From positions 258,292,001 to 258,356,000 of the forward strand of contig OZ024740.1 in assembly GCA_964016885.1 (NCBI GenBank): a stretch of 64,000 nt of DNA, given 5' to 3'. Below the pieces are notes generated by a model. It was given only the letters and a program-made list of their open reading frames with translations. It did not search any database and had not been told where the DNA came from. Shown in pieces: positions 10,726 through 47,677 of the stretch. The DNA comes from Eledone cirrhosa (taxonomy: Eukaryota). Within the stretch, counting starts at the first letter, position 1; each line of letters opens with the position of its first letter. A program made the position numbers and the translations under genes.

Positions 10726-12389
10726 ATGTACGTTAATACTTTTCCATTTAGAGTGTTTTAAAATCCCCACTGTCAGTCTAATTTCTTTAGTCAAAATACG
10801 GCGAAAGCTTCTATTTCTACTAAATTTCAAACTTCGCTCGCTGTCTCCAAAGCAGACGCTTCCTTAATGTTATAATTATTAATTCAAAGGAATTTAAATT
10901 ATTTATTGTTATTATACTTAAGTAAATCAATAATCTACAATATCACCATACATCTAGTTGAAAAATAGTTTTGTAATTTATTTTACGGCTCAAAAGTAAC
11001 ATACTTTTCAAATCCATGCCAATATTATTTTGTACACGATGACAGAGAGCTGCGTAACGATCAAAACAATTTCACCGGCGACGCGGGAGGTGCTCTGTAT
11101 ATTGTTCCTAGGGTGTATCTTAAATTAAAACCTGTTAGGCGGTGAGCAGATTTAGTATTGTGTTTAAAAAAGATTAGTTGTGTTAGATAGCTTATATTAT
11201 TCATAGATCATTTCCACATGACTCTATACTATCATATTTCCATGCTGGGTACAGCAGGCCGTTACTCTGAGATATAAATAAAAATAAAATTATTTACTGT
11301 TACATTAAGATGGGCTTATAATCCTATCCACTCTAGAAAACATAACAACTGAAGGCTGAAGAATGGATAAAGGTTAACTGACACTCAAAATTCTCGCCCG
11401 AATGTTTAAGTCTACCTACCATTACCTCTTTAGAGTCAAGCCCAGACATTGGTAAGCCCTGTTAGATCAAGTGGCGTTTTACATTTTAATGGATCATGCC
11501 TATATTAGCTGGAGCAGAGTTCGATGTTATCACTGCATTGGGTGGCATGGTGGGAAATTACCAGAGGTATAATGTGTTAATTTCCCCAGAACTTGTTGCG
11601 ACCTCCAGGATGGCATAATTCGATATCCTTATTTGGGTGGAACGGATATCAGAAAGAGGGACACATAGATTCATATAACTGACGTAGAAACAGCCTACCT
11701 CATTTTAACGTCCTCTTTATGTATATACCATAGCCAACATATTTATTACAGTTAATGGAAATCCCCAAAAGTATGAGATCCCGCAATCAAAATTAAAAGG
11801 AAAATTCACACATGCGTGTGGTCGGTCCATTCTTGTTACTAAGCTAAGTGAGTGAAGTGAAATATATAGAATCTAAGGGACTTAGACGTAAATTATAAAT
11901 TAAATCTATCCAGGATCTAGGATTTAGGTACCACGTTCACTTTATACCTAGTATAATAAAAGGAGTGGGGGTTTCTATGCGGGCTAGCGGACGCAATATC
12001 AGGTTTCCTGTTTAGGATTTATGCCTTGATATCATTTTACACAGGTACTCAGTAAGGCACAGACTACACCTCTTATTTGTTGGTTGGTATGATAGGGCTA
12101 TTTTTAGGCCCCTCCAATTTATGGAGTATTAGGTCCAATTTTCATTTAATTCCCAACGAATTTGAGGTGCCGATTCTTTTTTACTTAAATGAGAGGTGGT
12201 GCATATAATACCTGGACTTGACTATCAGTTTGGGTAGAGATCGTTTATTTGTAAACCACGTTTTTCAATAAGCATCCATCGCTTAGATGACAGGTAGATG
12301 TGTTTCTACAATTGCAATTAATTCAAAGGGTGTGTGCATTCGATATTACGTTAATACTATTATTATTATTATTATTATTACATTATTAA

Positions 12390-12590
12390 AAGGCGGTGGA
12401 TTGGCAGTATCGGTAGAGGGTCGGACGCCATGCTTTCCAGCATAGTTACGTCCCTTTACGATCTGAGTTCAAATCCCGCCGAGGTTGACTTCGCCTTTCA
12501 TCCTTACGGGGTCGATAAAATAAAGTACCAGTAATGCACTGGGTAATTGCTGGCCTTGTGCCTAAAGTAGAAACAATTATTATTATTATT
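12390..12590 (+). mobile_element. Full-length tRNA-derived SINE in an (ATT)n tract
   Basis: Boxes A and B, consensus body, (ATT)n on both sides. Confidence 0.92.
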
Positions 12591-12718
12591 ACAGCTGCAT
12601 TTATCTTGCTTTATGTTCATACCAGTTATCACCATGAACATAAAGCAAGATAAATGCAGCTGTAATAATAATAATAATAATAGTATTAACGTAATATCGA
12701 ATGCACACAGCCTTTGAA

Positions 12719-12733
12719 TTATTATTATTATTA

Positions 12734-12821
<88 letters not shown>
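12719..12821. repeat. (ATT)n tract, tail/target of the Dong element
   Basis: About 30 ATT units. Confidence 0.97.
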
Positions 12822-12823
<2 letters not shown>

Positions 12824-15800
12824 AGTTGCATTTATCTTGCTTTATGTTCATACGAGTTATCACCAAGTCACAACCAGTGACCTCAAGAGACAACAAGGTC
12901 CGCCATGTTCAAGAAAGAACATACATACTCACACATGCATCTTTAGTGTTTAGACTTGTGTGTACTTACATTGACAGAATCTTCCTTAGTATATGGGCAG
13001 TTCCCATTAGTACTATCTTTTGTATTTCTCCTATACGCGGGTTTCCTGGGATTTGCGATAAGTAATCATTAGACCCCTTAGGTATCATTCCCAGAGCGCC
13101 TACAACCACTGGTATTGTTTTAGTTCTCAATTTCCACATTTTTCCAATTTCTATCTCCAGGTCCTTATACTTGCTCAATTTTTCAAATGTTTTTATAGAT
13201 ACATTCTTGTCTATTGGGACGGACATATCAATTAGCAGGCATACCCTCTTTCTAAAGTCCTTCGATATTATATCAGGTCTATTTGCATCTATTTTTCGGT
13301 CTTTTTGGATGCTAAAGTTCCACAAGATTGAGATGTGATCTTTTTCAAGTATGGGAGGTGGTTGATGCTCCCACCAATTCTTTTGATTGGGAAGGTCAAA
13401 ATGCTTACTCATTATCCAATGTATGTATTGTGCAGCTCTGTCATGCCTGTTTAGGTATTCGGTTGGAGCTATGGGACTGCACATTGAAATTATATGGTCA
13501 ATGGTCTCTGGTTGTTTTTTGCATACACGGCATAATGGGCTGCATCCATTTTTTATTATGTTGGCTTGGTCATTTTTTGTTGGCAGACACTGATCTTGTG
13601 CCGATATAATAAATCCTTCAGTCTCCGATTTCAGTCCAGAGGATACCAACCACTGATGGGTTAAAGTTTTGTCAACATCAGGATTGTTAGCTCGTTCTGG
13701 GTATTTTCCATACAGAGGCTTTTCTTGCCATTTCTTAGCCAGTTTCTGTAGCAGTTCTTTCTTTGCAGTTACTTTTACCTGCTTTGCTTTTTCTGTGTTT
13801 TCCATTTCAGCAGTAAATGGGACTTCTGAAATTTGTAGTCCATTACTGTATCTTTGTGCATCTTTCGTAATGGAATATGATCTTTTGATGCTTTCGTGTT
13901 TCAAAACGAGTTTGATCATCCAATCATGTGATTCCCTTAGATATGTAGATAATCCAATTGTTGCAGTTTTCAATGCAATGTCTAACTGGATTAACCCACG
14001 TCCTCCTTCTTTCCTAGGGAGATATATTCTATCTGTATCTACCTTAGGGTGATGCATTCTGTGCATGGTTAAGAATTTTCGAATTTTTGTATCGAGCCTA
14101 CGGATCTCTGTGCTTGACCAGTTGATGACATTGTAACTGTAGGTTACTACTGGTATGGCAAGCGTGTTTATGGCATCGATCCTATTCCTTGCATTCAATT
14201 CCGTTCTTAAGATTGCTCTTACTCTGCGGTAACATTCCTTCCTTATCCTTCCCCTCATTGTCGAGTGCTTGTTTCCGTCTCCTTCACAAACACCTAGATA
14301 TTTGTAAGTTTTTTCTCGATCAAGTTCTCTTATCACGTTCCCCCCGATCAAGATTAAGTCTGAACTCCTCAGCAGCTTTCCTCTGGTGAATGTTGCCTTG
14401 GCGCATTTATCTAATCCAAACTCCATTTTAATGTCATCACTGAACTGCTCCACAGTGGATAATAGCCCTTGCAATTGTTCATCATTTTTTGCAAATAGTT
14501 TCAGGTCATCCATGTAGAACAAGTGATTAATGGTTTTGTCATAGACTTTATATCTATGTTTTGTTTCATTGAACATTTTACTTAATAGTATAAGTGCGAT
14601 GCAGAATAAAAGCGGTGATAAAGAGTCACCCTGAAAAATTCCACAATTAATATTAACTTCTCCAGCTTCCAGTGATTTTGTTTCACTATTCAAAAGGAGT
14701 GTCGTTTTCCATGTCTTCATACTGAATGACAAAAACCTCCTGACAACGGGGGATATTTTGAAAATCTCTAAACATTTTTCAATCCAACTGTGTGGCAAAC
14801 TATCGAATGCTTTTTTTATAATCTATCCAAGCAATTGATAGATTTTTGTGTCTATTATGACAATCTTCCAGTATCATTTTGTTAACCAAAAGCTGATCCT
14901 TACAGCCATATGAGCCTCGTTTACACCCTTTCTGCTCAATGGGAAATAGGTCATTTGTTAGCAGGTGGTCATATGTGTATTCAGTTAGGACTGATGTTAA
15001 AATGTTATACATTGTGGTCAAGCAAGTTATCGGTCTGTAATTTTTGGGATTGTTTGTCTCATCATTCTTCGGAAGCAGGAATGTAATGCCGTTAACTAGC
15101 CATGATGGTATCTTTTCTGGCTCCTTAACTATTTCATTGTAAAGTTGGGCTAACAGCTCATGAGACTCTGTGAAGGCATTTATCCAAAAATTTTGTATTT
15201 TGTCTTTTCCTGGGGATTTCCATTTGCTGGTTTTTCTTAGAGCCAAGCGCAACTGTTCAACTGTTATATTTTCCCATATTTGTTCTTCAAGGTGAGCTGT
15301 ATCTTTCATTTGTCTGTCTATCCATGGGGCATGTATGTTATGAACTTTTTCTTCGGCCCAGTTCTTTTCCCAGAATTCTTGCACTTCCTCCCTGGGTGGT
15401 ATTGATTTAGCAGTTATTGTTGACTTACCAATTTTTCTGTAGAAGTTTCTTTGGTTGTTTTTGAACATATTATTGTCCTTATAGAATCTAGATCGTTTTT
15501 CAAAGCGCCTTATACGAGCAGCTTTGGCCGACACTTTTTGCTTGATTATTTCTATCAGCATGTCTATGTCACTTGTTGATTTTATACTGTACTTTCTTTT
15601 CAATTTTCTAAGTTTAGTTTGTTTAACATGTTCACCTACTTTATAGTTTGTTAAAATTTCCATGTCAGATCGGAGAAGGTTTATTTGGCGATTGATGTTC
15701 TCTTGCCAAGTAGATTTCTTGTGGGAATTCCTTTGTTTTTTCATCTTCACTCCACATAAGTGAGTGGTGACTTTAGCCGATGCATAATAGAGATGATTTA

Positions 15801-16785
15801 AATCAGTAATGTTTAGTTTGTTTGTGATGATAATGTTTTTGAGAAATATGTTTGTCTTGTGTATTATCTTTTGGTTCTGTTTGGAGTTCTGGATCTTAGG
15901 GAGGGTGTCTCGTTGCCCCATGTCAGATTCTTTCATTTTCATCCATTCGATCATAATTTCATCCTTCAAGTTGGCAAGTTCATTCTCATTCATTTCTTTA
16001 TCATTTACGATCTCATTATTTCCATTTGGAGTTTCATCTTGAGCATGCACTCCCTCCACTTTTTCGATCCTTTCTTTAATTTGTTCTGGTGCCAGTGATT
16101 CCGCCCCAAACCTGGGATTCGAAGTGTTACAATTTACCTCGTTTTCACTGACACATGTTTCATTTTCCCTTCGCTGACTTTGTGCTTGATCTGATCAATT
16201 TCTATATCAGTTAGTAACTTTCTTTTTACAATATTTCTACGTATATTGGCTAGTTTGTTACTGTCAATATAGCCTCTGTTTTCGGGATGTTTCTTTTTCC
16301 AGTTGATATATGTCTGTTCTGTATTCGATGTATTTGATGGGTAGTACATCGCAGTGTAGAAAGCCTCAAGGACTTCTTTATTATCTTCCCTTGACCATTT
16401 TTCTCTCTTTTTCTTTGGATTTCTTGGTGGTGAGCATGGAGGGCCAACAGTATTCCGGTTATGGGAGTTCTCCAGCTCCGAAGTGATGGGAAGGTTTGAA
16501 CCATTAGCTGATTTTTCGACCCCAGTCTGGTCCCTCTCTGAGGGATGCGGCCCTTTTTTACCCGGGTGACGGCCGATCCGGTATGAGATTTTATCATTAG
16601 ACATTTACTTTATTTTGTCGCGTTTTATCCTTATCCGCCAATGGGTAATCATTTCGTGTTACCACTTCTAGAACGAGTGTCAACCAAGACTAGAGGTGTC
16701 GTTCTCCCCTAGAGACACGGCTATTCCCCCCCCCCCCCGGCCGCCATCCCGATATTTCTTGGTCACGGGGTTTTCTTTTTTGTTG

Positions 16786-16788
<3 letters not shown>
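12822..16788 (-). mobile_element. R4/Dong-like non-LTR retrotransposon, lineage A, apparently full length
   Basis: N-terminal Myb-like W..E...W region, RT (NYRPITCL, IFQGDSLSP, FYMDDLKL), CCHC (CRVCKKQPETIDHIISMC), RHD and RPD...D...K restriction-like endonuclease. (TAA)n at both ends, as known for Dong elements. Confidence 0.9.
12966..16604 (-). pseudogene. Single RT+RLE ORF of Dong-A, broken by frameshifts near ~16100 and ~14810
   Basis: ORF-track pieces 16134-16604, 14800-16059 and 12966-14798 are collinear with the intact neighbouring ORF. Confidence 0.85.
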
Positions 16789-16837: not shown

Positions 16838-19552
16838 TGCATTTATCTTGCTTTATGTTTATACGAGTTATCACCAAGTCACAACCAGTGACCTCAAGAG
16901 ACAACAAGGTCCGCCATGTTCAAGAAAGAACACACATATTCACACATGCATCCTTAGTGTTTAGACTTGTGATGTACTTATATTGACAGGATCTTCCTTA
17001 GTATATGGGCAGTTCCCATTAGTACTATCTTTTGTATTTCTCCTATACGCGGGTTTCCTGGGATTTGCGATAAGTAGTCGTTAGACCCCTTAGGTATCAT
17101 TCCCAGAGCGCCTACAACCACTGGTATTGTTTTAGTTCTCAATTTCCACATTTTTCCAATTTCTATCTCCAGGTCCTTATACTTGCTCAATTTTTCAAAT
17201 GTTTTTATAGATACATTCTTGTCTATTGGAACAGACATATCAATTAGCAGGCATACCCTCCTTTGAAAGTCCTTCAATATTATATCAGGTCTATTTGCAT
17301 CTATTTTTCGGTCTGTTTGGATGCTAAAGTTCCACAAGATTGAGATGTGATCTTTTTCAAGTATGGGAGGTGGTTGATGCTCCCACCAATTCTTTTGATG
17401 GGGCAGGTCAAAATGCTTGCACATTATCCAATGTATGTATTGTGCAGCTCTGTCATGCCTGTTTAGGTATTCGGTTGGAGCTATAGGACTGCACATTGAA
17501 ATTATATGGTCAATGGTCTCTGGTTGTTTTTTGCATACACGGCATAATGGGCTGCACCCATTTTTTATTATGTTGGCTTGGTAATTTTTTGTTGGCAGAC
17601 ACTGATCTTGTGCGGATATAATCAGTCCTTCAGTCTCCGATTTCAGTCCAGAGGATGCCAACCACTGATGGGTTAAAGTTTTGTCAACATCAGGATTGTT
17701 AGCTCGCTCTGGGTATTTTCCATACAGAGGCTTTTCTTGCCATTTCTTAGCCAGTTTCTGTAGCAGTTCTTTCTTTGCAGTTACTTTTACCTGCTTTGCT
17801 TTTTCTGTGTTTTCCATTTCAGCAGTAAATGGGACTTCTGAAATTTGTAGTCCATTACTGTATCTTTGTGCATCTTTTGTAATGGAATATGATCTTTTGG
17901 TGCTTTCGTGTTTCAAAACGAGTTTGATCATCCAATCATGTGATTCCCTTAGATATGTGGATAATCCAATTGTTGCAGTTTTCAACGCAATGTCTAACTG
18001 GATTAACCCACGTCCTCCTTCTTTCCTAGGGAGATATATTCTATCTATGTCTGCCTTAGGGTGATGCATTCTGTGCATGGTTAAGAATTTTCGGATTTTT
18101 GTATCGAGCCTACGGATCTCTGTGCTTGACCAGTTGATGACATTGTAACTGTAGGTTACTACTGGTATGGCAAGCGTATTTATGGCATCGATCCTATTCC
18201 TTGCATTCAATTCCGTTCTTAAGATTGCTCTGACTCTGCGGTAACATTCCTTCCTTATCCTTTCCCTCATTGTCGAGTGCTTGATTCCGTCTCCTTCACA
18301 AACACCTAGATATTTGTAAGTTTGTTCTTGATCAAGCTCTCTTATCACGTTCCCCCGATCAAGATTAATGTCTGAACTCTTCAGCAGCTTTCCTCTGGTG
18401 AACGTTGCTTTGGCGCATTTATCCAGTCCAAACTCCATTTTAATGTCATCACTGAACTGCTTCACAGTGGATAATAGCCCTTGCAATTGTTCATCATTTT
18501 TTGCAAATAGTTTCAGGTCATCCATGTAGAACAGGTGATTAATGGTTTTGTCATAGACTCTATATCCATGTTTTGTTTCATTGAGCATTTTACTTAATGG
18601 TATAAGTGCGATGCAGAATAAAAGCGGTGATAAAGAGTCACCCTGAAAAATTCCACAATTAATGTTAACTTCTCCAGCTTCCAGTGATTTTGTTTCACTA
18701 TCCAAAAGGAGTGTCGTTCTCCATGTCCTCATACTGAATGACAAAAACCTCCTGATAACGGGGGATATTTTGAAAATCTCTAAACATTTTTCAATCCAAC
18801 TGTGTGGCAAACTATCAAATGCTTTTTTATAATCTATCCAAGCAATCGATAGATTTTTGTGTCTATTATGACAATCTTCCAGTATCATTTTGTTAACCAG
18901 AAGCTGATCCTTACAGCCATATGAGCCTCGTTTACACCCTTTCTGCTCAATGGGAAATAGGTCATTTGTTATCAGGTGGTCATATGTGTATTCAGTTAGG
19001 ACTGATGTTAAAATTTTATACATTGTGGTCAAGCAGGTTATCGGTCTGTAATTTTTGGGATTGTTTGTCTCATCATTCTTCGGTAGCAGGAATGTAATGC
19101 CGTTAACTAGCCATGATGGTATCTTTTCTGGCTCCTTAACTATTTCATTGTAAAGTTGGGCTAACAGCTCATGAGACTCTGTGAAGGCATTTATCCAAAA
19201 GTTTTGTATTTTGTCTTTTCCTGGGGATTTCCATTTGCTGGTTTTTCTTAGAGCCAAGCGCAGCTGTTCAACTGTTATATTTTCCCATGTTTGTTCTTCA
19301 AGGTGAGCTGTTTCTTTCATTTGTCTGTCTATCCATGGGGCATGTATGTTATGAACTTTTTCTTTGGCCCAGATCTTTTCCCAGAATTCTTGCACTTCCT
19401 CCTTGGGTGGTATTGATTTAGCAGTTATTGTTGACTTACCAATTTTTCTGTAGAAGTTTCTTTGGTTGTTTTTGAACATATTATTGTCCTTATAGAATCT
19501 AGATCGTTTTTCAAAGCGCCTTATACGAGCAGCTTTGGCCGACACTTTTTGC

Positions 19553-19555
<3 letters not shown>
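16837..19555 (-). mobile_element. 5'-truncated Dong-A copy, tandem to the previous one
   Basis: Same 3' UTR (gcatttatcttgctttatgtt..) and near-identical sequence, bounded by (ATT)n at 16789-16836 and 19556-19617. Confidence 0.92.
16978..19545 (-). CDS. Uninterrupted 855-codon RT + CCHC + restriction-like endonuclease frame (lacks native N-terminus)
   Basis: Open frame with YMDD, CCHC, RHD and PD-(D/E)xK motifs. The start is a truncation point, not a true initiator. Confidence 0.85.
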   Translation of the reverse strand: MSAKAARIRRFEKRSRFYKDNNMFKNNQRNFYRKIGKSTITAKSIPPKEEVQEFWEKIWAKEKVHNIHAPWIDRQMKETAHLEEQTWENITVEQLRLALRKTSKWKSPGKDKIQNFWINAFTESHELLAQLYNEIVKEPEKIPSWLVNGITFLLPKNDETNNPKNYRPITCLTTMYKILTSVLTEYTYDHLITNDLFPIEQKGCKRGSYGCKDQLLVNKMILEDCHNRHKNLSIAWIDYKKAFDSLPHSWIEKCLEIFKISPVIRRFLSFSMRTWRTTLLLDSETKSLEAGEVNINCGIFQGDSLSPLLFCIALIPLSKMLNETKHGYRVYDKTINHLFYMDDLKLFAKNDEQLQGLLSTVKQFSDDIKMEFGLDKCAKATFTRGKLLKSSDINLDRGNVIRELDQEQTYKYLGVCEGDGIKHSTMRERIRKECYRRVRAILRTELNARNRIDAINTLAIPVVTYSYNVINWSSTEIRRLDTKIRKFLTMHRMHHPKADIDRIYLPRKEGGRGLIQLDIALKTATIGLSTYLRESHDWMIKLVLKHESTKRSYSITKDAQRYSNGLQISEVPFTAEMENTEKAKQVKVTAKKELLQKLAKKWQEKPLYGKYPERANNPDVDKTLTHQWLASSGLKSETEGLIISAQDQCLPTKNYQANIIKNGCSPLCRVCKKQPETIDHIISMCSPIAPTEYLNRHDRAAQYIHWIMCKHFDLPHQKNWWEHQPPPILEKDHISILWNFSIQTDRKIDANRPDIILKDFQRRVCLLIDMSVPIDKNVSIKTFEKLSKYKDLEIEIGKMWKLRTKTIPVVVGALGMIPKGSNDYLSQIPGNPRIGEIQKIVLMGTAHILRKILSI

Positions 19556-19617: not shown

Positions 19618-19800
19618 GTTCTTTAAGTCTCAGTCATTGATGTTATTTAACTGGAAGGTTTGTTGAAATGAATATCAAGCGGCTATCTGCAGCCTCAGAA
19701 ATTCAGGACGTATCGGAGGGTTCTTGCTGTTCCCAGCAAGCATGCCTTTTGAAGTGTTCCAAAAATCGGGGCTGGACTAATCTTCTTTAACCATCCTTGG
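19618..19800 (-). mobile_element. ~180-bp 3' fragment of Dong lineage B
   Basis: Matches 19857-20036 and the 3' end at 47450-47630 (LQKACLLGTARTLRYVLN). Confidence 0.88.
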
Positions 19801-19856: not shown

Positions 19857-22690
19857 CTTTGAGTCTCAGTCATTGTTGTTAGTTAACTGGAAAGTTTGTT
19901 GAAATGAATATCAAGCCACTACCTGCAGCCTCAGATATTCAGGACGTATCGGAGGGTTCTTGCTGTTCCCAGCAAGCATGCCTTTTGAAGTGTTCCAAAA
20001 AGCGGGGCGGGGCCAATTTTCTTTAACCATCCTTGGAAACTTTTTGAGATAGTACCTAGTGCGCCTATGACAATCGGGACCACTTTGACTTCATGGCAGT
20101 TCCAAATCCTTTTTACCTCCCACTTTAAGTCCTGGTATCGGTTAATTTCTCCCTCTCCTTTTCTTGCACTCTCGTGTCAAATGGGCAGGCCACATCCACA
20201 ATCAGGCACGATCTTTCTTCCTTGTCCAAAACCACCAGGTCAGGTCTATTGTGTTCCAGTTTCTTGTTCGTCTGTATCCTAAAATCCCATAGCACCTTTA
20301 CCTGATCGTTTTCTATCACCGATTCTGGTTTATGCTCATACCACTTCTCAGAATGTGGTAAATTGTTTACTTTGCATAGGTGCCAGTGGATTACCCTGCC
20401 CATCACATCATGTCTCCAGCCTTTATAGTGAGTATGGGCTAGGTGTTTACACTCGGATACAATGTGAGCCACAGTCTCCTCTCTCTCTCCATAGATCCTG
20501 CACAGTGGGCTAGCCTCCTCCTTGTAAATATGGTGATTCAGCCACTTCGTTTTGAGGGCCTGCTCTTGCGCAGCCATTAGTATTCCTTCTGTAGCATTTT
20601 TAAGGTCTCCACTTCTCAACCAGTTCCATGTCTGTGGATCTCTGAATTCCGTTTTCTCAAAGAAGGTACTATGAAGGGATTTTTCATGAAGGTTGCTCTT
20701 CCTCCTCGTTGTTATTTCCTCCTAGGACATCCCCTGGTCTATTGTCCTCTCCTTCAGTACAATTCTGAGCATTGGCTCCTTACTATCGGCCACGTATTTA
20801 TGTAGGTTGTTTTTCTCCATCTGAACACAGTCCTCTATGCTGATAAGACCTCTTCCACCTTCAGATCTCTTAAGTAGAGTCTATCGACATCACTCCTCTT
20901 GTGGAACATGTTGTAGATAGTCAATAGCTTCCTAGTCTTCCTATCCATTTCTGTTTGTTCAGCAACATTCAATCTCAGAATTCTCGCACTGTACCTAATA
21001 ATTGTTTCTACTTTAGGCACAAGGCCAGCAATTACCCAGTGTATTACTAGTACTTTATTGTACCTAATAATAGACACAGCTCGGGAATTTACTGCACTTA
21101 TGGCATTCCTACTGTTCAGATGTGACTTTAATACGCTCCTTACTCTCCGAATGTATTCAGATCTTATCAATTCAATCATTTTTTTGTTCTTGATGTCATC
21201 AGCCTCCAGAATACCCAAACACTTGTATCCTTCTTCAGTGTCAATTTCCTTTATCATCTCACCTGTTGGTATCTGGATTCCGTTGCTTCTGCTCAATTTC
21301 CACCTCTTCATCACAAGGACTCCACACTTACTAATATCAAATTGCATACATATATCATTGCTGAAAATACGGACAGTGTCAACAAGCACATCCAACTCCT
21401 TCTCACTCTTCCCGAAGTGCTTAAGATCGTCCATGAAGAGGAGGTCATTGATGGTAAGCTCTCCCCTTCCCAACTTGTATCCTGCACTCACTTTTCGCAG
21501 TATAATGGTCAGGGGCATCAGGGCAAGGACAAACAACAGAGGGGACTGACTATCTACCTGGAAGATACCTCTCTTGATTTTCACGCCTCACAAGGATTCT
21601 CCAGCTGATGTTAACTCTGTTTTCCAGGACTTCATACTTTTGCTCAACAACTGTCTGATGTTATCTGCCACATTGAAGATCTCTAGGCTTTTGGTGATCC
21701 AAGAATGAGGCATCATGTCAAATGCCTTTTTGTAGTCTATCCATCCCATGGCAAGACCATTGTGCCTCCTCTTACAATTCCTCATTACCATCTTATCAAT
21801 AAGTAACTGGTCCTTTATACCACGGGACTTCTTTCGGCATCCTTTCTGTTCGTCCGGTAACAAGTTGTTTGTGTGGAGGTGATGGTAGATTTCCTCAGAC
21901 ACAATGCTTGTCAACAGTTTCCACATTACGGACAGATATGTGATAGTTCTATAGTTGGTAACATCATTACCCTTGATTCGGTCTTTCATTACCAGAACTG
22001 TGGTACCTTTTGTCAACCACTCTGGTACCTCACCTGACATCAAGCAGTCATTGAACATGGTTGTCAGTTTCGGGTGGAGGGATGTTACATTTTTAATCCA
22101 ATACCCCTGCACACCATCTGGGCCTGGTGATTTCCAGTTGGTTAGTTTTTTGGCCTGCCCCTTGAGAGTTTCAACTGTGATACTCAAATCAGTTTGTGTT
22201 GTGTGCCTGTTCACTATTCTCCATTTGTACTGTCTCAATCCACACTGCCTGGTCATTATTTTTAACATCCTGCCCCCATATTCCTCTCCAGAATGTCTTA
22301 GTTTGTTCCGCATCAGGGATCAAGTCGTTGCCTCTTTCTTTCCTTTCAAGCTGTCCAAACAACATCTTATGGTTGTTGTCAAACATGCGGTTCTGTCTAT
22401 ACTGACTGACTCTGCTGTCGTATCGCCTAATTTTTTTACTCTTTGCTACAATGCGTTGCTTCAGTTCCTCTATGATAATATTTAGTCTTTTCCTCCTATT
22501 TTTGTACTTTATTTCCAGTCTATTTTTAGTGTCTATATTTTTTAGTGTCCCATTCAGTAGGGACTCAAGCTTTACAACGTCATTTCTCATTTCCCTGATT
22601 TGACCATTCAGTCGTTTCTTCCACCAAGGTTCTGATCTTTCTTGTTTGTTGTTTCCACACCAAGGTTCTGATCTTTCTTGTTTGTTGTCT
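19857..22690 (-). mobile_element. 5'-truncated, frameshifted Dong lineage B copy containing a SINE fragment
   Basis: Peptides nearly identical to 44165-47554 (WKSPGPDGVQGYWIK, FMDDLK, RHDVMG, NRPDLVV); ATT repeats on both sides. Confidence 0.9.
21003..21059 (-). mobile_element. 5'-truncated SINE with a 12-bp target-site duplication
   Basis: SINE 3' end flanked by GTACCTAATAAT at 20991-21002 and 21060-21071. Confidence 0.9.
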
Positions 22691-22897
22691 CTATTATTAC
22701 TATTATTATTATTATTGTTGGTGAAGCCACGCTTCTTATCGCCTCCAGAATTTTTTCAACGTTTTACCTCGCTTTCAACCGTTCTAATCCTTTTATTCAA
22801 GTTTTAAATTTGATAAAAGTTTAGAAGAAGTGACCCACCTAATACGGGGTGTCGTAATAGTATTTGTGTAAAAAAAATTTTTTTTTTAAATTTCAAC

Positions 22898-24953: not shown

Positions 24954-24985
24954 CCCATTCTCACTTGCCTCGTTTCTCATCCAAC

Positions 24986-34354: not shown

Positions 34355-34946
34355 TACTATCCTTATCCCTATCATAGCTGTTGCCAGTATTTGAGTTACT
34401 ACAGACACGATTATTACCAAGAGATATTTTCTTCGTCTAGTATTGCGCCCGCCTATATTCCAGGCAATCGGTTTATAAATGGTATAAGAAATGCTATAGA
34501 TATTCTTCTTCGAGTTGTCATTAGGTTTCCCTAATTTATCCTTATATCCCGACCACATTATTGCCTCAATACAGTATTGAGCACTTCTATAAAATATTTC
34601 TATATTAGAGTCTGGAGATACGGTTAGAAACACTGCTTACAATTGAACTAAGTACAGATTTGGGATGATTACACTTGGAAGCCACATAAAACAACTCTCC
34701 ACCTGGTTTATGGTAGGACATATCGAGGCTGATATTAAGTTTAGGCGAACATACAGAAAGTTGACCGACTTTGTATTTCTATTATATCTATTATATTTAA
34801 GCTATTTTCTTTAAAGAAACTGTGCAGATCGATTTCGGATTACTGGTGTACCAAGGAAGCCTGATAGCATCGAGCTTTTCTCAGCTTTACCAGGATCTAT
34901 ATTGGAATACCTCAATATCACCATATATATATATATATATATATAT

Positions 34947-35510: not shown

Positions 35511-35591
35511 AGTGTCTAGCAACCATCGTTGCTCGTTTGTTCAACACTGACTTTTGTTCAACACTGACTTTTGTTCACTCGTTTGTTCAAC

Positions 35592-38409: not shown

Positions 38410-38454
<45 letters not shown>

Positions 38455-38457
<3 letters not shown>

Positions 38458-38635
38458 TGTTTCTACTATTGGCACAAGGCCAGCAATTACCCAGTACATT
38501 ACTGGTACTTTATTTTATCGACCCGGTAAGGATGAAAGGCAAAGTTAACCTTGGGGGGATTTGAACTCAGAATGGCAAGGGCCGTAACTATATGCGTCAG
38601 ATCATGGTGTCCGACCCTCTACCGATACTGCCAAT
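38455..38635 (-). mobile_element. SINE between Tx1 copies 4 and 3
   Basis: SINE consensus with its tail on (AAT)n 38410-38457; its 5' end is fused to the AATAAAGAA terminus of copy 4. Confidence 0.9.
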
Positions 38636-41600
38636 CTTCTTTATTGGCCACAAGGGCTAACATGAAGAAAAAGATTACAGACGGCACAGGACGATACAAA
38701 ATGGGGTTTGGCCGTGTTAAAAGGATATAAAAGACAGAAAATTGTAAAATAAATAAAATTCAAATAACAAAAATTCCCCAATAAGAGGGAAGCTTCCGAG
38801 GGTCTCACATGGCGAAAACCACACAAAAGACCACGGCTACCCTGACCACCAGGACAAGCGCGCTCTCTCAGTTTTCCCACTCTTCAGTCTGCAGGCGCAT
38901 ACTCAGAGTGGGCCCGTTCACTCGGACCAGACTCGCCAATTTCACCCACCTTTTAACAAATTTGTCCGTCTTCAACCCTTTCAACCTTGTCCACCACACA
39001 ATCTCTTTCGTCATCGCCACCAGGCAGATTAAGATGGCTTGTCCTTCCTCCTCTTTAAAGGCGGATGGCGGGGCTATCTACACAATGGACTCGGTCGATA
39101 ACGGGATCCATCCTACATGCGACAGCAACTGTTCGACATAACTCCACAAGTCAGCAATTCCCGGGCACTGAACGAGTGCGTGCAGGACAGTTTCGTCATC
39201 CTGAGCGCATCTCGGACAGGATCGGCTGACGCCACCTCCGTGTCTGAAGAGCTTATCCCGAACCGGCAACGCTCCCCGGTAGCATTGCCAGGCCAGGGAT
39301 TACTGGAAATTGTCCATAGGTCCCCGGCTGAAAGTTCTCTTGAAGAGAGCAAACAGCTGATCGTCTTCGACGCCCAGGGTCTCCCCGAGAACGTCGTCGC
39401 TCTTTCCCTCCACTAGCCCTCTATAGAACGCCAAGGAGGATGTTCCACTGATATCAGCGAACGATCCAGCCTCTAAACACGGGCCTGAAGCCGGCCGCCT
39501 CGTGAACCGCAGCCAGGTACCGATGGTCGATCGTATCAAACGCGTTAGATTGATCCAAGTTGCTCTGGGCCCCACCCGTGCCAGGTTCCTTAACTACCCT
39601 CTCTATGATGTATCGCATGAGATGGAGGTTGTCGTGGATGGATTTGTCCGGAATGGTGCATATCTGCGTGTCTCCCACCAGATTACCGACAAGCGCCAAT
39701 CTTGTTGCTAACACCTTGGCCAAAATCTTGAAATCTGTGTTTAACAGAGTTATGGGCCTGAAGTTGTCTATAACGTCCTCTTTGTTCGGGTTTTTTCTCA
39801 GCAGCACTACCGCTCCACGGCTCACAATACTGGGGATGCTGCCAGTTGCAGTAGACATCTGCCAAGAGGTCGCCGAACAAGTCTGGCAGGTACGCATACA
39901 GCTCGTAGGGTACACATCCAAACCTGGCAATTTACCCATCGTGCTGATTTACCATCGTATTTCACCTGCTGTTATCGGCCTTTCGCAGCACAGTGCTGCG
40001 GTCGCTGGGAGCCGCAGCAGTCCGTCAAGTTATGCACCAAAGTCCATACTCCGATCCTGTCTGCCGCCGCCCCCGAACAATCGAGCAAAGTGCTGTTGAA
40101 AAGCCGCACACATCTGCTCGGCTTCGAACAATATGTGCCCAATTTCATCAAGCAAAGACCGTATTGTGGATTTGTTGCCACGTCGCGCCTCCACCAGCCG
40201 GGTCCGTTGAACGGCTTTCGTCTCCTCGTGTCTCAGAGCACGCACACTAGCTATGACAATATATCCTTCATGCTTTGCGTTGAAGAATTGGTCGAGTTCC
40301 AATCCGCCGCAAGCACGTCGGTTGCGATGCCTGTCCTAAACGCCTCTTCTAGTTTTCTAATTAGCTCTCCCTCCACTCTATTTTCCTCTATCACTACTCA
40401 TTTGAAAAACCTGATCGATTCTACTCTAATAGCCCTTTTCAGGGTAAACCACCACCTGTTGTTGACGATTGCACCTGTCAACGCACGCTTAACTAATTCG
40501 CCAATCCGGTCTCTGTCAATTTTGCGCGCCGGGAAAGACGCGTTCAGCTTCCAGTAGCCAGGCCCTTGTCTATGGAGTCTATCTAAGTCAACCTCAAAGG
40601 TCACGAATGTGTGGTCTGTGTAGCCGACTACTTTAAATTGTGAACAGATTTCACTAGCCTTTTCTGTTTCCCTACAGAATACTCTATCCAAATACGATCT
40701 GGATGACCCGATGCGTTTTGCCCATGTCCATATTGGTACATTCGGATAATCCAGTCTATACCTGTCAGACAGTTCAAAACGTCTGAGCAGGTTATTGAGG
40801 CTTTTGCACCCTATGTCCTGTCTACTAGCCCCACATAATCCCAGCGTGCATCTAAGATACCGTTCCAGTCGCCCACTAACCCTAAGGAGCGGAACATTCC
40901 AAGAAGGTTCTCTAGACGTCTGAAAAAATCTGGCCGTCCTGCTGTGTTGGGATGTAGACGGCTACTAGACTGAAAGCATTTCCTTCGCCTCCGGTCACGT
41001 CCAGCACCACCGACGTACCTTCTGGGTCCAGGAAGATGGCCCGTATGGCAAGATCCAAGCCTCTCCAAAAAAGCACAGCAACTCCTCACCCCGATCCTGG
41101 GCGGCTGGGAGATATGTATACATCGTAGCTGCTGCCGAAGATCGGTGTGAAGACTCGGGTTTTGGAGATTCTGGTCCCGCTGATAGCCACCCTGTCTATG
41201 TTTAGTGACCTGAAGTCGTTGAGCAGGTGACCCTGCTTACAAGATGACCCCAGGCCACATGCATTTATGTTGCCTATTCGAAGTACGGCCATGCTTGATG
41301 AGGAACGGGGCAAGTGAGAAAGGATCACTTACCTTGATCGTGTGGGGAAGAAACAGTAGAACCGTCCCCTCGGCTGGTGATGGATGTCTCCAAGACGATA
41401 ACTTTGTATATGCTTTTTGAGTGTGACCCCCTGAAATCCCCTGAAAATTTTTGTTTTAATTGTTTGTAGTTTTCGAGTTCAATTTCCATAATGTTAATGT
41501 TTTTTGGTAATTTTCTTGGTGTTGATGGTGTGTGGTAATTTACGTCTGAAATATCGGTGTGGTGTTTTATGTGTTCCATTAGTCCTTGGTGTGCAATGTT

Positions 41601-43642
41601 TATGACTGTGTACTTTTGGAGGAAGGGGTGGTTTTGTTGCTGTTTTCTTGTTGTTGCTGTTGGGTATGTGTGGTTTGTTGTGTTAGTGATGTTGGTGTTT
41701 TTGGTGATGCTGGTGGTAGTGTGGTTGTTGCTGGTGTTGATGCTTGTGGTGATGATGGTGATTGTGGTGGTGTTGCTGCAAGTCTCCTTGCAGTCTTTAT
41801 TCTTCTTTCTTTGCCTTCGCTTTTGTAGGGAGGAGCTAAGGTGTTTTTCCGTTTATTTGCTTTTTTGTTTTTTTCCTGTTAACAACCGTTTTTCATTCCC
41901 CAGCCGCCTCATACTCCATGTCCGACTGTGAGAGGTCGGGGAGGGTATCAGTTCTATCCTCTTATTTGTCTTTGCTGTTGTTGGTGGTAGTAGGGGTGGA
42001 GCCTGGTTCGCCGCTCCTGGCATAGGTGCAGCTAGTACAACTGATTTTTGTTTTTTATGCTGCAGCTGCCATCGCTGTTTTTGTTGTCCGTGGCTATGGT
42101 GTGGGTGCCACGGACGTTGTCCTCCTACTCTCTGTAGAAGCCCCGACTATTTAGCTGACTGCTCAGTTTCTGGCACCGGTTCCGGCGTTGGAAGGAGGGT
42201 GGCCTTGGCCTTTGTTATTTTCTGTGGGCAGAAAGCCCTGAGGTGAGAGTATGATCCACAGTTGAAGCATTTTGGGCGCCTTCCTTCCACACATATGGGA
42301 AGTTGGGAGCCATTCCCTAGGTCTATTACGTCGGGAATAGCGCTGATGCAGTCCTGGTTGGTTTGGATGAGCATCTCCATTCCAATACCGAACCAGTCCT
42401 TACTCCCCAAGTTCTGTACCTGCAGAATTGTTGTTTTATCTTCGATGCCCGTTAGAACAGACACGACCAGCCAAGGCACGGGTACGTAGGGCGTTACCCG
42501 GGTTACCTTGACCTTTGCAATTTTTTTCCCGCAGTAAAACGGAGAGAGGCCGTGGTGGCGAAAAGTACGTCTACTGTGGCGTACTTTTTGCCTCGGGCGA
42601 TGTGGGTTTTGCGCGCCCAGACGCACCCCAAGGTCTTTGGGATTTGAGCCTCCGTGGCTCTCTCCACACGATGTGACATTTTGCTTACGGTGCGGTACGT
42701 CACCTTGCGCAGCTGCTGGTCTTTGAAGAAATTGGGTGGCGGTTTCAGGGAAACTCTATTGTCTTGAAACCATGGCTATTGCGACTGCCATCTCCTCCTC
42801 TGTGACTAGCACTGTCTCTATATTTCGGGCCACACCGCTACTGCTGCTACTGGTCTTGTTGTTGCTGTTGCTACTGCTACAAACGGTGTTGTTGGTGTTG
42901 TTGCTGTTATCACTGTTATAGTTGGTTGTGTTTTTGGTGCCACCGTTATTGTTGTTTTCGGTGCAATTTGTATTGTTGCTGTTGTTTATTTTCTTGTTAG
43001 TGGTATTAATATCGTTGTTGCATTTGTTGTCATTTTTTTCTGTTGTCTGTATTTTGGTTGTAGCTGTTATTGTTGTAGTTGGTATGGTAATTTTTTTAGA
43101 ATTAGTGTTTTCAGTGTTGTTGTCTTTGTTCACGTTTGTGGTGGTGTTTGTTGTATCATTTTCTGTCTTTGCCGTAACTCACCCCTCAACTGTTACGCTG
43201 TTGTCACACGACAGCAGACATATCGCTGGGGGGCGTGGCTCAAACATGTTTTTTTTTTTGACAGTTTTTAAAAGTAAAATGTTCAAATATTTGGGCCAAA
43301 TATCGAAGATAAAACAATAATTCTGCAGGTACAGAACTTGGGGAGTAATGACTGGTTCGGTATTGGAATGGAGATGCTCATCCAAACCGACCAGGACTGC
43401 ATCAGCGCTATTCCCGACGTAATATACCTCGGGAATGGCTCCCAACTTCCCATATGTGTGGAAGGAAGGCGCCCCAAATGCTTCAACTGTGGATCATACT
43501 CTCACCTCAGGGCTTTCTGCCCACAGGGAAAAGTCCAAGGGCTTTTATCCCTTACACAACAAGAAAAATTAAACAACAAATAATTATAACAGGTAAATAA
43601 AGCGACTTACTGGGAGCACGAAAAAAGGCGTCCGAAGAGACC
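38636..43642 (-). mobile_element. Tx1 copy 4 (copy-1-like ORF1), internally deleted
   Basis: ORF1 (NIETVLVTEEEMAVA, CFNCGSYSHLRAFC), APE and partial RT with a deletion near 39455, and the 3' end cccttgtggccaataaagaa. The 5' end abuts (AAT)n. Confidence 0.88.
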
Positions 43643-43693
<51 letters not shown>

Positions 43694-46600
43694 TCCTACT
43701 ACTAACAAAGAGGAAGGCATCAAAATATATAGATAGACTCAAAAGAAAAAAGAAAAAACAAACAACAAAACCAAAGCAGCACAGCAACAACAGCAAAAAC
43801 GAGAAAAACAAACAGAGAAAAACAAAAACAAAAAAAGAAACCCCAAAAACGTAAAGAAAATAAGAATGAAGAGAGAAGCAGGCGGACGGACAGAGAAGAG
43901 GGGGGAAAAAGTAAAACTTAAAAAACAAAAACTAAGTCAGACATTCGAATACTACATTACAATGAAACTTATGCTTATTCATTTTTGGGGCACTTTCTGC
44001 CCGTGTGTTTGTTTGTTTATGTGTGTTCGTATACAGCGTGGTGATAATGCCACACAAGGGCCAAGTGGGATGGCGGATCCACAGATGGCTATGTAAACAT
44101 ACATTCGCCAATCCTCGATAAGAGTGTTTAAATATCGAACATAAACAGTTCGAATAACGGTGAAATGGAGACTAGAACGTCATGTGACAGACTCTCACCC
44201 AACAGGTGCCCCCTGGCTCAGCAGCAGGAACCTGACTGTCAACCAAATACTGCTGATGTTGGAGGAAGAAGAAGAAGGAAAGGGGCCAGAACCAACTGGA
44301 CGAAAGAATTGAATAGAACTGTTATGCAATGCTACCTGAAAAGTAACCCCAAGGAGAGGGGCTACAGGAGACGGATGCATAACATCTGGAACGAGATTGG
44401 TTTATTTAAATTAGATGAACAAAAATTGGCCGGGCAGGCTCGGGTAATAAGAACTAATGGGTGGATAAGCGAGCTGGAACTGGAGGAACTGAGCAGAGAG
44501 AATGGCTTGGAGATGGCGGGTGTAGTATGCCAGACAAGCGAGCCGGTGGGAAATGAAGGTGAGGAGGTCCTGAGAACGGAGGAACCACCCGAAGCAGACA
44601 ATGATCTGAATACTGAGATAAATAATACCTGGAACAGAGATACGGCCACTGAGGAGATGAATGCTGACGGGCTAGGACAAGATTCGGTTGACATCCTAAA
44701 TTTAGTGGTAGATGAATTGAACAATGATAGTGGGAGACCTATGAACCTAAGATTTGTAGACAGGAAAAAGTTAAAAGAAACAACAGCTAAGGTAAACAAA
44801 GTCATCCCATACCTTGAGGCGAGGAGCCTTCACCAGTGCAACAATATCCTCAAAGCAACAGCAAATACGGTGAGGAAACTACTTGGTATAAAAGCGAGAG
44901 GAAACAACAGACAAGAAAGAGCAGAGCCGTGGTGGAAGAAGCGACTGAGTGGGCAAATCGGGGAAATGAGAAATGACATAGGAAAGCTTGAGTCACTACT
45001 GAATGGGACACTAAAAAACATAGGCACTAAAAATAGACTGGAAATAAAATACAAAACTAGGAGTAAAAAGCTAAATATTATCATAGAGGAATTGAAGCAA
45101 CGCATTGTAGCAAAGAGTGCCAAAATCAGGCGATACGAGAACAGAGTCAGTCAGTATAAACAGAACCGCATGTTCGACAACAACCAGAAGATGCTGTTTG
45201 GACAGCTTGAGGGGAAAGAAAGAGGCAACGACTTGATCCCTGGGGCGGAACAAGCTAAAACATTCTGGAGAGGAATATGGGAGCAGGATGTTAGACACAA
45301 TGCCCAGGCAGGGTGGATTGAGACAGTACAGAGGGAGATCGGTGAGCAGGCACAACAACAGACTGATTTGAGTATCACAGTTGAAACTCTTAAGGGGCAA
45401 GCCAAAAAACTAACCGACTGGAAATCACCAGGCCCAGATGGTGTGCAGGGGTATTGGATTAAACATTTAACATCCCTCCACCCGAAGCTGACGGCCATGT
45501 TCAATGACTGCTTGGTGTCGGGTGAGGTGCCAGAGTGGTTGACAAAAGGTACCACAGTTCTGATAATGAAAGACCGAATCAAGGGTAATGATGTTACCAA
45601 CTATAGACCTATCACATGTCTGCCCGTAATGTGGAAACTGTTGACGAGCATTGTGTCTGAGGAAATCTACCATCACCTCCACACAAACAACTTGTTACCG
45701 GACGAACAGAAAGGATGCCGAAAGAAGTCACGTGGTACAAAGGACCAGTTGCTTATTGATAAGATGGTAATGGGGAATTGTAGGAGGAGACACACTGATC
45801 TTGCCATGGGATGGATAGACTACAGAAAGGCATTTGACATGGTGCCTCATTCCTGGATCACCAAAAGCCTGGAGATCTTCAGGGTGGCAGATAACATCAG
45901 ACAGTTGCTGGGCAGGAGTATGGGGTCCTGGGAGACAGAGTTGACATCAACTGGAGTATCCTTGGGAAGCGTGAAGATCAAGAGAGGTATCTTCCAGGGA
46001 GATAGCCTGTCCCCTCTGTTGTTTGTCCTTGCCCTGATGCCCTTGACCATTATGCTGTGAAAAGTGAGAGCAGGATACAAGTTGGGAAGGGGAGAGCTTA
46101 CCATCAATCACCTCCTCTTCATGGACGATCTTAAGCTCTTCGGGAAAAGTGAGGAGTTGGATGTGCTTGTTGACACTGTCCGTATTTTCAGCAGTGATAT
46201 ATGTATGCAGTTTGGTATTGGTAAATGTGGAGTCATTGTGATGAAGAGGGGTAGGTTGAGCAGAAGTAACGGGATCCAGATACCAACAGGTGAGATGATA
46301 AAGGAAATTGACTCTGAGGAAGGATACAAGTATTTGGGCGTTCTGGAGGCTGATGGAATAAAGAACAAAAAAATGAAGGAATTGTTAAGAACTGAATACA
46401 TTCGGAGAGTAAGGAGCGTATTGAAGTCACATCTGAACAGCAGAAATGCCATAAGCGCAGTAAATTCCCGAGCTGTGTCTATTATTAGGTACAGTGCGGG
46501 AATTCTGAGATGGAATGTTGCTGAACAAAAAGAAATGGATAGGAAGACTAGGAAGCTATTGACTATCTACAACATGTTCCACAAGAGGAGTGATGTCGAT

Positions 46601-47630
46601 AGACTCTACCTAAGGAGATCTGAGGGTGGAAGAGGTCTTATCAGCATAGAGGACTGTGTTCAGATGGAGAAAAACAACCTATACAAATACGTGACCTATA
46701 GTAAGGAGCCAATGCTCAGAACTGTACTGAAGGAGGGGACAGTAGGCCAGGGGATGTCCAAGGAGGAAATAACATCAAGGAGGAAGAGCAGCCTTAAGGG
46801 AAAATCCCTTCATAGTACCTTCTTTGAGAAAACTGAATTTAGAGATCCACAGACATGGAACTGGTTGAGAAGAGGAGACCTCAAAAAGGCTACAGAAGGA
46901 ATGCTAATGGCTGCGCAGGAGCAGGCCCTCAAAACGAAGTGGTTGAAGCACCATATCTACAAGGAGGAGGCTAGCCCACTGTGCAGGATCTGTGGAGAGA
47001 GAGAGGAGACTGTGGCTCACATTGTGTCCGAGTGTAAACACCTAGCCCAGACCCACTATAAGGGCTGGAGACACGATGTGATGGGCAGGGTGATCCACTG
47101 GCACCTGTGCAAAGTAAACAATCTACCACATTCTGAGAAATGGTATGAGCATAGGCCAGAGGCGGTGATGGAGAACAGTCAGGTGAAGGTGCTGTGGGAT
47201 TTTAGGATACAGACGGACAAAAAACTGGAACACAATAGACCTGACCTGGTGGTTGTGGACAAAGAAAAAAGATCGTGCCTGATTGTGGATGTGGCCTGCC
47301 CGTTCGACACGAGAGTGCAAGAGAAGGAGAGGGAGAAAATTAACCGATACCAGGACCTAAAGTGGGAGGTGAAAAGGATTTGGAACTGCCATGAAGTCAA
47401 AGTGATCCCGATTGTCATAGGCGCACTGGGGACTATCTCCAAAGGTTTCCAGGGATGGTTAAAGAAAATCGGCCCCTTCACGCTTTTTGGAACGCTTCAA
47501 AAGGCATGCTTGCTTGGAACGGCAAGAACCCTCCGATACGTCCTGAATATCTGAGGCTGCAGGTAGTGGCTTGATATTCAATCCAACGGACTTTCCAGTT
47601 AACCAACATCAATGACTGAGATTCAAGGAA
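43694..47630 (+). mobile_element. R4/Dong-like lineage B element, apparently full length
   Basis: (AAT)n on both sides; one long reading frame with Myb-like N-terminus, RT, CCHC, RHD and RPD..D..K. The exact 5' boundary is uncertain. Confidence 0.9.
44165..47554 (+). pseudogene. ~1130-codon RT+RLE ORF interrupted by one in-frame TGA (46058-46060)
   Basis: The 631-aa and 496-aa ORFs share a frame. The sister copy reads TIILRKV where this one reads TIML*KV. Confidence 0.88.
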
Positions 47631-47677
47631 TAACAATAACAATAATAATAATAATATTTATATATAAGAATATATAC

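What the first reader, a model, noticed from the sequence alone, without database searches (positions are those of the whole stretch)
12355..47656. 35-kb train of retroelements chained on one triplet repeat with strict polarity
Seen: SINE, Dong-A x2, Dong-B x2 and Tx1 x2 are joined by (ATT)n from 12.4 to 34.4 kb. Tx1, SINE, Tx1 and Dong-B are joined by (AAT)n from 35.6 to 47.7 kb. Dong (RLE endonuclease) always reads with the AAT strand; Tx1 (APE) and the SINE always read with the ATT strand. Known: Dong targets TAA repeats. Inference: two unrelated endonuclease systems share one target on opposite strands, and each insertion regenerates target through its tail, giving a self-extending safe-harbour array.
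Basis: partly seen in the sequence, partly recalled or inferred. Interest (0 to 1): 0.75.

Follow-up and report, generated by a model that had tools for sequence, protein, structure and literature searches.

The report
Two back-to-back ATT-repeat retrotransposon stacks
This stretch is two separate stacks of jumping genes, one inside and one beside a decayed Penelope-like element, in which two unrelated kinds of jumping gene share ATT repeats and always face opposite ways, as they do across this genome, likely because each cuts its own strand of the repeat and leaves repeat behind for the next.

Summary
The elements, tracts and polarity are real, but this is two stacks (22.0 kb and 12.1 kb), not one 35-kb train. 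A 1.2-kb spacer without the triplet separates them.

Polarity is genome-wide: 322 of 322 element ends beside (AAT/ATT)4+ tracts in 231 other loci obey it. All 29 other Tx1-2 5' ends checked sit in an ATT tract. Chains of 5-14.5 kb are usual.

The left stack fills the Asn-codon linker of a decayed Penelope-like element, and a paralogue shows colinear flanks. Sister copies are independent insertions, youngest outermost.

The SINE is not tract-specific. It lands at ATTA-starting sites with duplications, and shares a 3' hairpin and 16-nt spacing with Tx1, its likely mobiliser.

Each part has a precedent: Dong on TAA, Kibi/Koshi Tx1, antiparallel TRAS/SART. I found no paper on an ATT-specific Tx1 sharing tracts with Dong. 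'Safe harbour' is untested. The scan reported this guild many times elsewhere in this genome.

The parts
12048..12357 (-). Decayed Penelope-like host, zinc-knuckle/GIY-YIG side; left flank of the left stack
   Evidence: tblastn of a paralogue ORF, E 3e-7; translation shows an Asn run, then CxC-x5-C
12358..12388 (+). (ATT)n tract at the host's Asn-codon linker (seed)
12389..12575 (+). SINE, youngest insert (100% identical to copies elsewhere)
12591..12634 (-). 44-bp Dong-A 3' stub
12634..12717 (+). Fold-back copy of stub, tract and 35 bp of left flank, without the SINE; likely snap-back synthesis; keeps the pre-SINE junction
12718..12822 (+). (ATT)n, about 35 units
12823..16787 (-). Dong-A copy 1 (RT, CCHC, PD..D nuclease motif); lacks about 1 kb of the family's 5' leader; ORF in three pieces
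16838..19555 (-). Dong-A copy 2, 5'-truncated, 858-aa open frame
19618..19800 (-). Dong-B 3' stub
19857..22691 (-). Dong-B left copy, 5'-truncated
20996..21062 (-). SINE 3' fragment nested in Dong-B with a 13-bp target duplication
22717..28694 (+). Tx1-like copy 1 (ORF1 with CCHC knuckle; APE, RT, zf-RVT), broken frames
28722..34352 (+). Tx1-like copy 2, full length, broken frames
34353..34828 (-). Same Penelope-like host, RT-end/linker side; right flank of the left stack
   Evidence: tblastn E 9e-10; colinear with the left flank in L298
34923..35592 (.). Unrelated high-copy repeat (1,227 candidates; matched 34923-35551) plus short tandem copies, at the break of the right stack
35593..38409 (-). 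Tx1-2-family copy, 5' half only
38410..38457 (+). (AAT)n, 16 units
38458..38636 (-). SINE abutting the Tx1-3 3' end without a tract
38637..43642 (-). Tx1-like copy 3 (third subfamily) with an inverted internal block at 43302-43526
43643..43693 (+). (AAT)17
43694..47625 (+). Dong-B right copy, young (99.9% to a copy elsewhere)
47626..47656 (+). Dong-B tail / (AAT)n
47674..47826 (+). GIY-YIG C-terminus of a second Penelope-like family; right flank of the right stack
   Evidence: tblastn E 3e-11

Best explanation
These are two separate stacks of independently inserted retrotransposons in which Dong-like (RLE) elements read the AAT strand and Tx1-like (APE) elements read the ATT strand, likely because each endonuclease nicks its own strand of the same triplet repeat, and each insertion likely leaves repeat on both sides as the next target.

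SHOWN: the anatomy; genome-wide polarity; repeat at Tx1 and Dong 5' ends as well as 3' ends; independent origin of sister copies; the left stack sits in the Asn-codon linker of a minus-strand Penelope-like remnant; target duplications at SINE copies and at a few Tx1 copies.

INFERRED from target-primed reverse transcription: Tx1 primes from the AAT strand, giving a junction just before ATTA, and Dong primes from the ATT strand. Tx1 proteins mobilise the SINE through a shared 3' hairpin. The right stack began in a plus-strand Penelope-like element, which would explain the mirror polarity. Growth went outward because the inner tracts were short or lost. No host function is needed.
For: Polarity: 322 of 322 element ends beside tracts in 231 loci (Dong 125 AAT; Tx1 132 ATT; SINE 65 ATT), 145 of them 5' ends.

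Tx1-2 5' ends: 29 of 29 in ATT tracts, 25 in the same phase. Dong 5' ends, mostly truncated: 25 of 36 have (AAT)4+ and 1 of 36 has (ATT)4+.

Duplications: informative ones at Tx1 copies L034 (about 20 bp) and L022; 18 of 25 scored SINE copies have one, and 23 of 25 continue with ATTA.

Independence: sister pairs are 97.2, 92.4 and 86.3% alike, against best matches elsewhere of 99.1, 99.9 and 94.9%.

Empty-site proxy: L298 carries both flanks, 311 bp apart after removing its SINE, against 297 bp here. L295 and L299 have an unfilled linker; L293 and L298 hold SINEs at the same seed.

Second host family: Dong-B joins the poly-Asn linker in 2 of 11 paralogues.

Hairpin: same 5-nt loop with stems ACC/GGT, GCC/GGC and GGC/GCC, 16 nt from the junction in 70 of 77 Tx1 ends and 150 of 161 SINE ends.
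Against: No nicking assay: strand choice is inferred.

Only 15 of 42 Tx1 5' ends among copies with an intact 3' end, mostly truncated, have (ATT)3+. About a quarter of the 42 look like alignment breaks inside the element, read by eye.

The SINE is much less tract-specific than Tx1, which is unexplained if both use one enzyme.

No informative Dong duplication was found beyond one doubtful case.

The right stack's seed is not shown: about 340 bp of host between linker and flank is missing, and the far flank is lost.

The polarity count is conditional on a tract being present and uses a library cut from this window. 171 of the 231 loci were found with element queries; the 60 random ones gave 14 of 14. 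The hairpin patterns required the loop.
Confidence: 0.75

Rival explanations
1. Polarity comes from pairing of each RNA's 3' repeat (read-through AUU or UAA) with whichever strand is nicked; the endonucleases only prefer AT-rich repeats and have no strand choice.
For: Tx1 ends lie just after a polyadenylation-like signal and run into ATT, so read-through tails are plausible. Annealing of RNA to target is proposed for SART1 (PMC7265360, passages). The SINE's loose specificity fits microhomology.
Against: SINE duplications start right after the SINE's last letter, one with GTTA (L096), so little or no tail is templated. Endonuclease swaps move specificity between TRAS1 and SART1 (PMC7265360, passages).
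Confidence: 0.15
2. The array is kept or enlarged by the host as a safe harbour or piRNA-type trap.
For: Large size (22 kb + 12 kb) inside dead repeats; no tRNA or Rfam match in the window.
Against: Such chains are common: 2 of 60 random 10-kb stretches hold a Dong-Tx1 junction, and 20 unselected loci give 5.3-14.5 kb chains. Trap loci need no strand rule tied to a repeat. No small-RNA data were seen.
Confidence: 0.05
3. The two arms arose by inverted duplication of one Dong-B/Tx1-2 block.
For: Both arms have Dong-B head-to-head with Tx1 and end in a Tx1-2 copy, in mirror order.
Against: Dong-B left/right are 92.4% alike, against 99.9% for the right copy elsewhere. The Tx1-2 pair is 86.3%, against 94.9% and 89.7% elsewhere. 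The right Tx1-2 copy is not among the 40 best matches of the left one. The outer flanks belong to different host families.
Confidence: 0.02
4. The array is a misassembly.
For: Short-read contigs break at the repeats, and no record spans either stretch laid.
Against: All copies differ, the flanks are colinear with a paralogue, and the same junction types occur on many contigs. A contig of single-copy depth joins 26-27 letters of the Tx1-2 end to the right flank with no loose end. That is below the tool's 31-letter bridging mark and possibly from the assembly's own sample.
Confidence: 0.03

Closest known systems
Dong, DongAg, DongBg (TAA-targeting; PMC3812793, passages)
   Same: TAA/AAT repeats on both sides, in sense; single ORF with RT and a C-terminal nuclease; Dong-R4 is an active LINE group in Octopus vulgaris (PMC13282606, Table 1).
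   Different: Here two families (Dong-A, Dong-B) share tracts with a Tx1-like element. That review lists Dong among APE-type elements, whereas these copies carry RLE motifs.
Kibi (TC)n, Koshi (TTC)n and crocodilian (TTCC)n/(TTTC)n Tx1 families (PMC4494074, passages)
   Same: Tx1-type APE elements specific for a microsatellite, with the T-rich strand in sense.
   Different: The unit is ATT, which I did not find reported. Kinship to Kibi/Koshi was not tested.
TRAS1/SART1 in Bombyx telomeric repeats (PMC7265360, passages)
   Same: Two elements insert into one repeat in opposite directions.
   Different: TRAS and SART are both APE elements (recalled) in a telomeric repeat. Here the pair is APE plus RLE in a dispersed microsatellite.
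SINEU mobilised by Tx1-Mar (PMC4494074, passages)
   Same: A SINE likely moved by Tx1 proteins, sharing target preference, often in tandem.
   Different: The target here is ATTA or (ATT)n, and the link is a shared 3' hairpin.
Hydra-clade Penelope-like elements (bioRxiv 10.1101/2021.04.23.441226, section 11 read)
   Same: The host remnants have a C-terminal GIY-YIG and a CxCX5C linker motif.
   Different: Here they are passive hosts. Clade membership rests on the motif only.

Membership tests
Dong / R4 clade | RT followed by CCHC finger and PD..D restriction-like nuclease, no APE | tested here: met
   Motifs in Dong-A and Dong-B translations; no APE Pfam hit; only R2 proteins match in PDB, over residues 91-804
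Dong / R4 clade | Insertion into (TAA)n in sense | tested here: met
   125 of 125 Dong ends beside tracts read AAT, 50 of them 5' ends
Dong / R4 clade | RT tree groups with named Dong/R4 elements | not testable with these tools
   No named reference came back; the original Dong paper is not held
Tx1 clade | Two ORFs; ORF2 with N-terminal APE, RT and zinc finger; L1 group | tested here: met
   PF03372, PF00078, PF13966; ORF1 CCHC knuckle; L1 ORF2p is the best PDB match, E 2e-24 against 2e-18 for R2
Tx1 clade | Target specificity (over 20% of flanks on one sequence type; criterion of PMC4494074) | tested here: met
   29 of 29 Tx1-2 5' ends; 26 of 28 scored Tx1-1 3' ends with (ATT)4+
Tx1 clade | RT tree places it in Tx1 rather than L1, and near Kibi/Koshi | not testable with these tools
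   No named Tx1 reference among the 120 listed hits
Tx1-mobilised SINE | 3' end shared with the partner LINE | tested here: met
   Same loop, covarying 3-bp stem, 16-nt spacing
Tx1-mobilised SINE | Same target as the LINE | tested here: inconclusive
   Same ATTA register (23 of 25), but only 17 of 124 3' ends have long tracts
Tx1-mobilised SINE | Pol III head (tRNA, 5S or 7SL) | tested here: inconclusive
   No ARAGORN or Rfam hit at gathering score; promoter boxes not examined
Penelope-like (Hydra clade) host | C-terminal GIY-YIG after RT, with CxCX5C linker | tested here: inconclusive
   Motifs seen; GIY-YIG hits below the Pfam cut-off, E 0.001-0.008, in 2 of 3 paralogue ORFs
Safe-harbour or piRNA locus | Neutral or protective effect; small-RNA output | not testable with these tools
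   No expression data examined

The most novel reading that the evidence does not exclude
This octopod-like genome holds an undescribed (ATT)n-specific Tx1 lineage whose APE nuclease nicks the A-rich strand. With RLE Dong elements on the other strand it forms an antiparallel APE/RLE pair on one dispersed microsatellite. It drives a very abundant SINE through a shared hairpin, and Asn-codon linkers of dead Penelope-like elements repeatedly seed the stacks.
Probability: 0.55. Interest if true: 0.55.

Novelty: new variant of a known kind. Interest (0 to 1): 0.38.

Why it matters
Tx1-like copies cover about 4% and Dong-like copies about 1% of a random 600-kb sample. A shared microsatellite target would therefore explain part of how this large genome grows and why LINEs cluster in it. 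The cephalopod repeat paper I read reports hot spots without a mechanism (PMC13282606, part 1 of 3 and passages).

It also offers a clean test of how an APE and an RLE nuclease read opposite strands of one 3-bp repeat, and a LINE-SINE pair with a covarying recognition hairpin. This locus in itself is one long example among many.

Tried and rejected
One 35-kb train: rejected (spacer). Arm duplication: rejected. SINE as a strict (ATT)n targeter: rejected. Right stack seeded at an Asn run inside the GIY-YIG C-terminus: rejected, because paralogues have no such run at that place.

One search used a faulty library entry (it ran past the Dong-A leader through a whole element and its flank). It undercounted Dong 3' ends and gave one false exception; one search replaces it. 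The Dong rows used the same library.

The own-genome search with the Dong-B 3' end returned nothing, so Dong-B counts come from copies met in other loci.

Sequencing runs could not show an empty allele: three contig sets from one sample and one RAD run; the SINE swamped.

Metagenome relatives were distant (best segments 23-51% identical), 0 of 58 had an (AAT/ATT)4+ tract, and most contigs end near the element. This says nothing about close relatives.

The Atlas could not read the Penelope-like ORF. The Dong-A leader gave no blastn match to this window's Tx1 5' ends.

Literature searches listed no paper on an ATT-specific Tx1 or a Dong-Tx1 shared target. Repbase entries, Kojima and Fujiwara 2004, and the figures and supplements of PMC4494074 were not seen and could hold it.
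Full report
SETTING. The window is G000:C1:258292001-258356000 in a 3.0-Gb genome. The closest named relative of the Tx1-like RT is from Argonauta hians (67%). R4-Dong elements among molluscs are found almost only in cephalopods (PMC10294476, passages). The genome is therefore probably an octopod's (inference).

ANATOMY. Self-BLAST, ORFs, Pfam and junction reading give two arms. The left arm (12358-34360) is SINE(+), a Dong-A stub with a fold-back, Dong-A(-) twice, a Dong-B stub, Dong-B(-) and Tx1(+) twice, on (ATT)n. The right arm (35593-47656) is a half Tx1(-), SINE(-), Tx1(-) and Dong-B(+), on (AAT)n. The 1.2 kb between them has no triplet tract. It holds host sequence and an unrelated high-copy repeat beside which the Tx1 copy breaks off. 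Dong-A and Dong-B have RT, CCHC and PD..D motifs, and Dong-A matches only R2 proteins in PDB. The Tx1 copies have ORF1, APE, RT and zf-RVT and match L1 ORF2p best. All LINE copies here are broken or truncated. Clade names rest on domain layout and target, not on a tree.

POLARITY IS GENOME-WIDE. I took the 30 best loci for each of six queries and 60 stretches of 10 kb at fixed positions. I dropped 6 self loci and 3 of 4 tandem neighbours, leaving 231 loci. Of 260 distinct (AAT/ATT)4+ tracts, 219 touch an element. All 322 element ends obey the rule: Dong 75 3' and 50 5' ends on AAT; Tx1 72 and 60 on ATT; SINE 30 and 35 on ATT. The 5' ends matter because a tail cannot explain them: 29 of 29 other Tx1-2 starts sit in an ATT tract, 25 in one phase. 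In the random stretches alone, 12 of 28 tracts touch an element, 14 of 14 ends obey, and 2 of 60 stretches hold a Dong-Tx1 junction. Around the first 20 non-self Tx1-2 hits, chains of 5.3-14.5 kb were seen within a 20-kb view, three of them running off the edge. The left arm is long but of a common kind. Against strictness: among 42 Tx1 copies with an intact 3' end, mostly truncated, only 15 have (ATT)3+ at the 5' end and none has AAT. By eye, about a quarter of these are alignment breaks, and several others abut the end of an ATT-tailed element.

THE SINE. It is not tract-specific: 17 of 124 3' ends have (ATT)4+. Of 29 top copies, 25 could be scored; 18 show a duplication and 23 continue with ATTA. 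Its 3' end shares a 5-nt loop with Tx1, closed by stems that differ in compensating ways (ACC/GGT 31, GCC/GGC 29 in Tx1; GGC/GCC 137 in the SINE). The loop lies 16 nt from the junction in 70 of 77 Tx1 ends and 150 of 161 SINE ends (the patterns required the loop but not the spacing). Mobilisation by Tx1 is the likely reading (inference; precedent SINEU/Tx1-Mar, PMC4494074, passages).

HISTORY OF THIS LOCUS. Sister copies are less alike than their best matches elsewhere, so they are independent insertions. Using best identity elsewhere as a rough age, the left arm runs Tx1-2 92-95%, Tx1-1 88-95%, Dong-B 94-96%, Dong-A 99% and 98%, SINE 100%. The right arm runs Tx1-2' 90%, SINE 95%, Dong-B 99.9%; Tx1-3 had no close relative in my sample. 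The youngest copies are outermost. Elsewhere Dong joins both ends of Tx1 (20 tail-to-tail, 15 head-to-head), so outward growth here is probably local. The fold-back at 12634-12717 repeats flank, tract and Dong stub without the SINE, which shows that the SINE entered an existing tract. Its form fits snap-back synthesis as described for R2 protein (PMC11204384, passages; inference).

SEEDS. Both flanks of the left arm match one old repeat that translates as a Penelope-like RT end, linker, Asn run, CxC-x5-C and GIY-YIG-like domain on the minus strand. In L298 the two flanks are colinear, 311 bp apart against 297 bp here once its SINE is removed. Of four paralogues that cover the seed, two hold SINEs there and two are unfilled. 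The whole 22-kb arm is thus nested in one short Asn-codon run. The right arm ends against the GIY-YIG C-terminus of a second Penelope-like family on the plus strand. In that family the linker is poly-Asn (L312), and Dong-B joins it in 2 of 11 paralogues. A plus-strand seed would give the mirror polarity, but about 340 bp of host is missing here and the other flank is lost, so this is inferred.

MECHANISM. In target-primed reverse transcription the nicked strand downstream primes the copy (established knowledge, recalled). An element that reads ATT in sense must then have primed from the AAT strand, and one that reads AAT from the ATT strand. I put 0.75 on strand-specific nicking with renewal of target by duplication (Tx1, SINE) and by tails (Dong), and 0.15 on tail annealing alone. 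Host selection, arm duplication and misassembly get little support. The runs laid neither span the array nor show an empty allele.

COMPARISON AND NOVELTY. Known precedents are Dong on TAA (PMC3812793, passages), microsatellite-specific Tx1 families (PMC4494074, passages), antiparallel TRAS1/SART1 (PMC7265360, passages), and multicopy targets as a survival strategy (PMC4640811, passages). Nine searches listed no report of an ATT-specific Tx1 or of a Dong-Tx1 shared tract. Repbase and several primary papers were not visible. It works like TRAS/SART on a dispersed microsatellite, with the twist that the partners use unrelated nucleases: a new variant of a known kind. The scan's own notes describe the same guild at many other places in this genome, including one stack in a Penelope poly-Asn run; those are unchecked notes and are not used as support.

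Noticed in passing
L122-L149 (Dong-A 5' leader); example L192:4032-4966: Dong-A copies with the leader carry a SINE 3' end, in sense, inside their roughly 1-kb leader as a fixed part of the family (28 of 29 top 5' hits).
   Followed up: partly
L129-L132 (G000:C28:114.44-114.46 Mb): Four Dong-A copies head-to-tail at a 4,955-bp period; three 3.3-kb loci are letter-for-letter identical. Tandem duplication, concatemer or assembly artefact.
   Followed up: partly
L241, L259: Dong-B copies are preceded by a leader 72-76% similar to the Dong-A leader.
   Followed up: no
window 34923-35551; L302-L310: High-copy unclassified repeat with internal direct repeats, often in inverted pairs, set in (AT)n.
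   Followed up: partly
L216: A random 10-kb stretch is covered end to end by same-strand Tx1-like matches with no (ATT)5+ tract; possibly a Tx1 family with another target.
   Followed up: no
L047, L078, L161: Another short repeat with an ATT-tailed 3' end precedes Tx1 copies and may be a further seed.
   Followed up: no
L002, L008, L014: Dong-A tails pass from (AAT)n into (AAG)n tracts.
   Followed up: no
window 2928-4865, 55831-56766: More Penelope-like remnants (tblastn at 3546-4293 and 55831-56766); the first lies between 636-bp inverted repeats.
   Followed up: no
window 9321-10565: Older Tx1 3' fragments and a SINE on short (AAT)n runs just left of the finding.
   Followed up: no
L028, L253-L254: Fold-back junctions involving the SINE, like the one at 12634-12717.
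   Followed up: no
window 61264-61725: RT fragment of another LINE (PF00078, E 3.5e-4).
   Followed up: no
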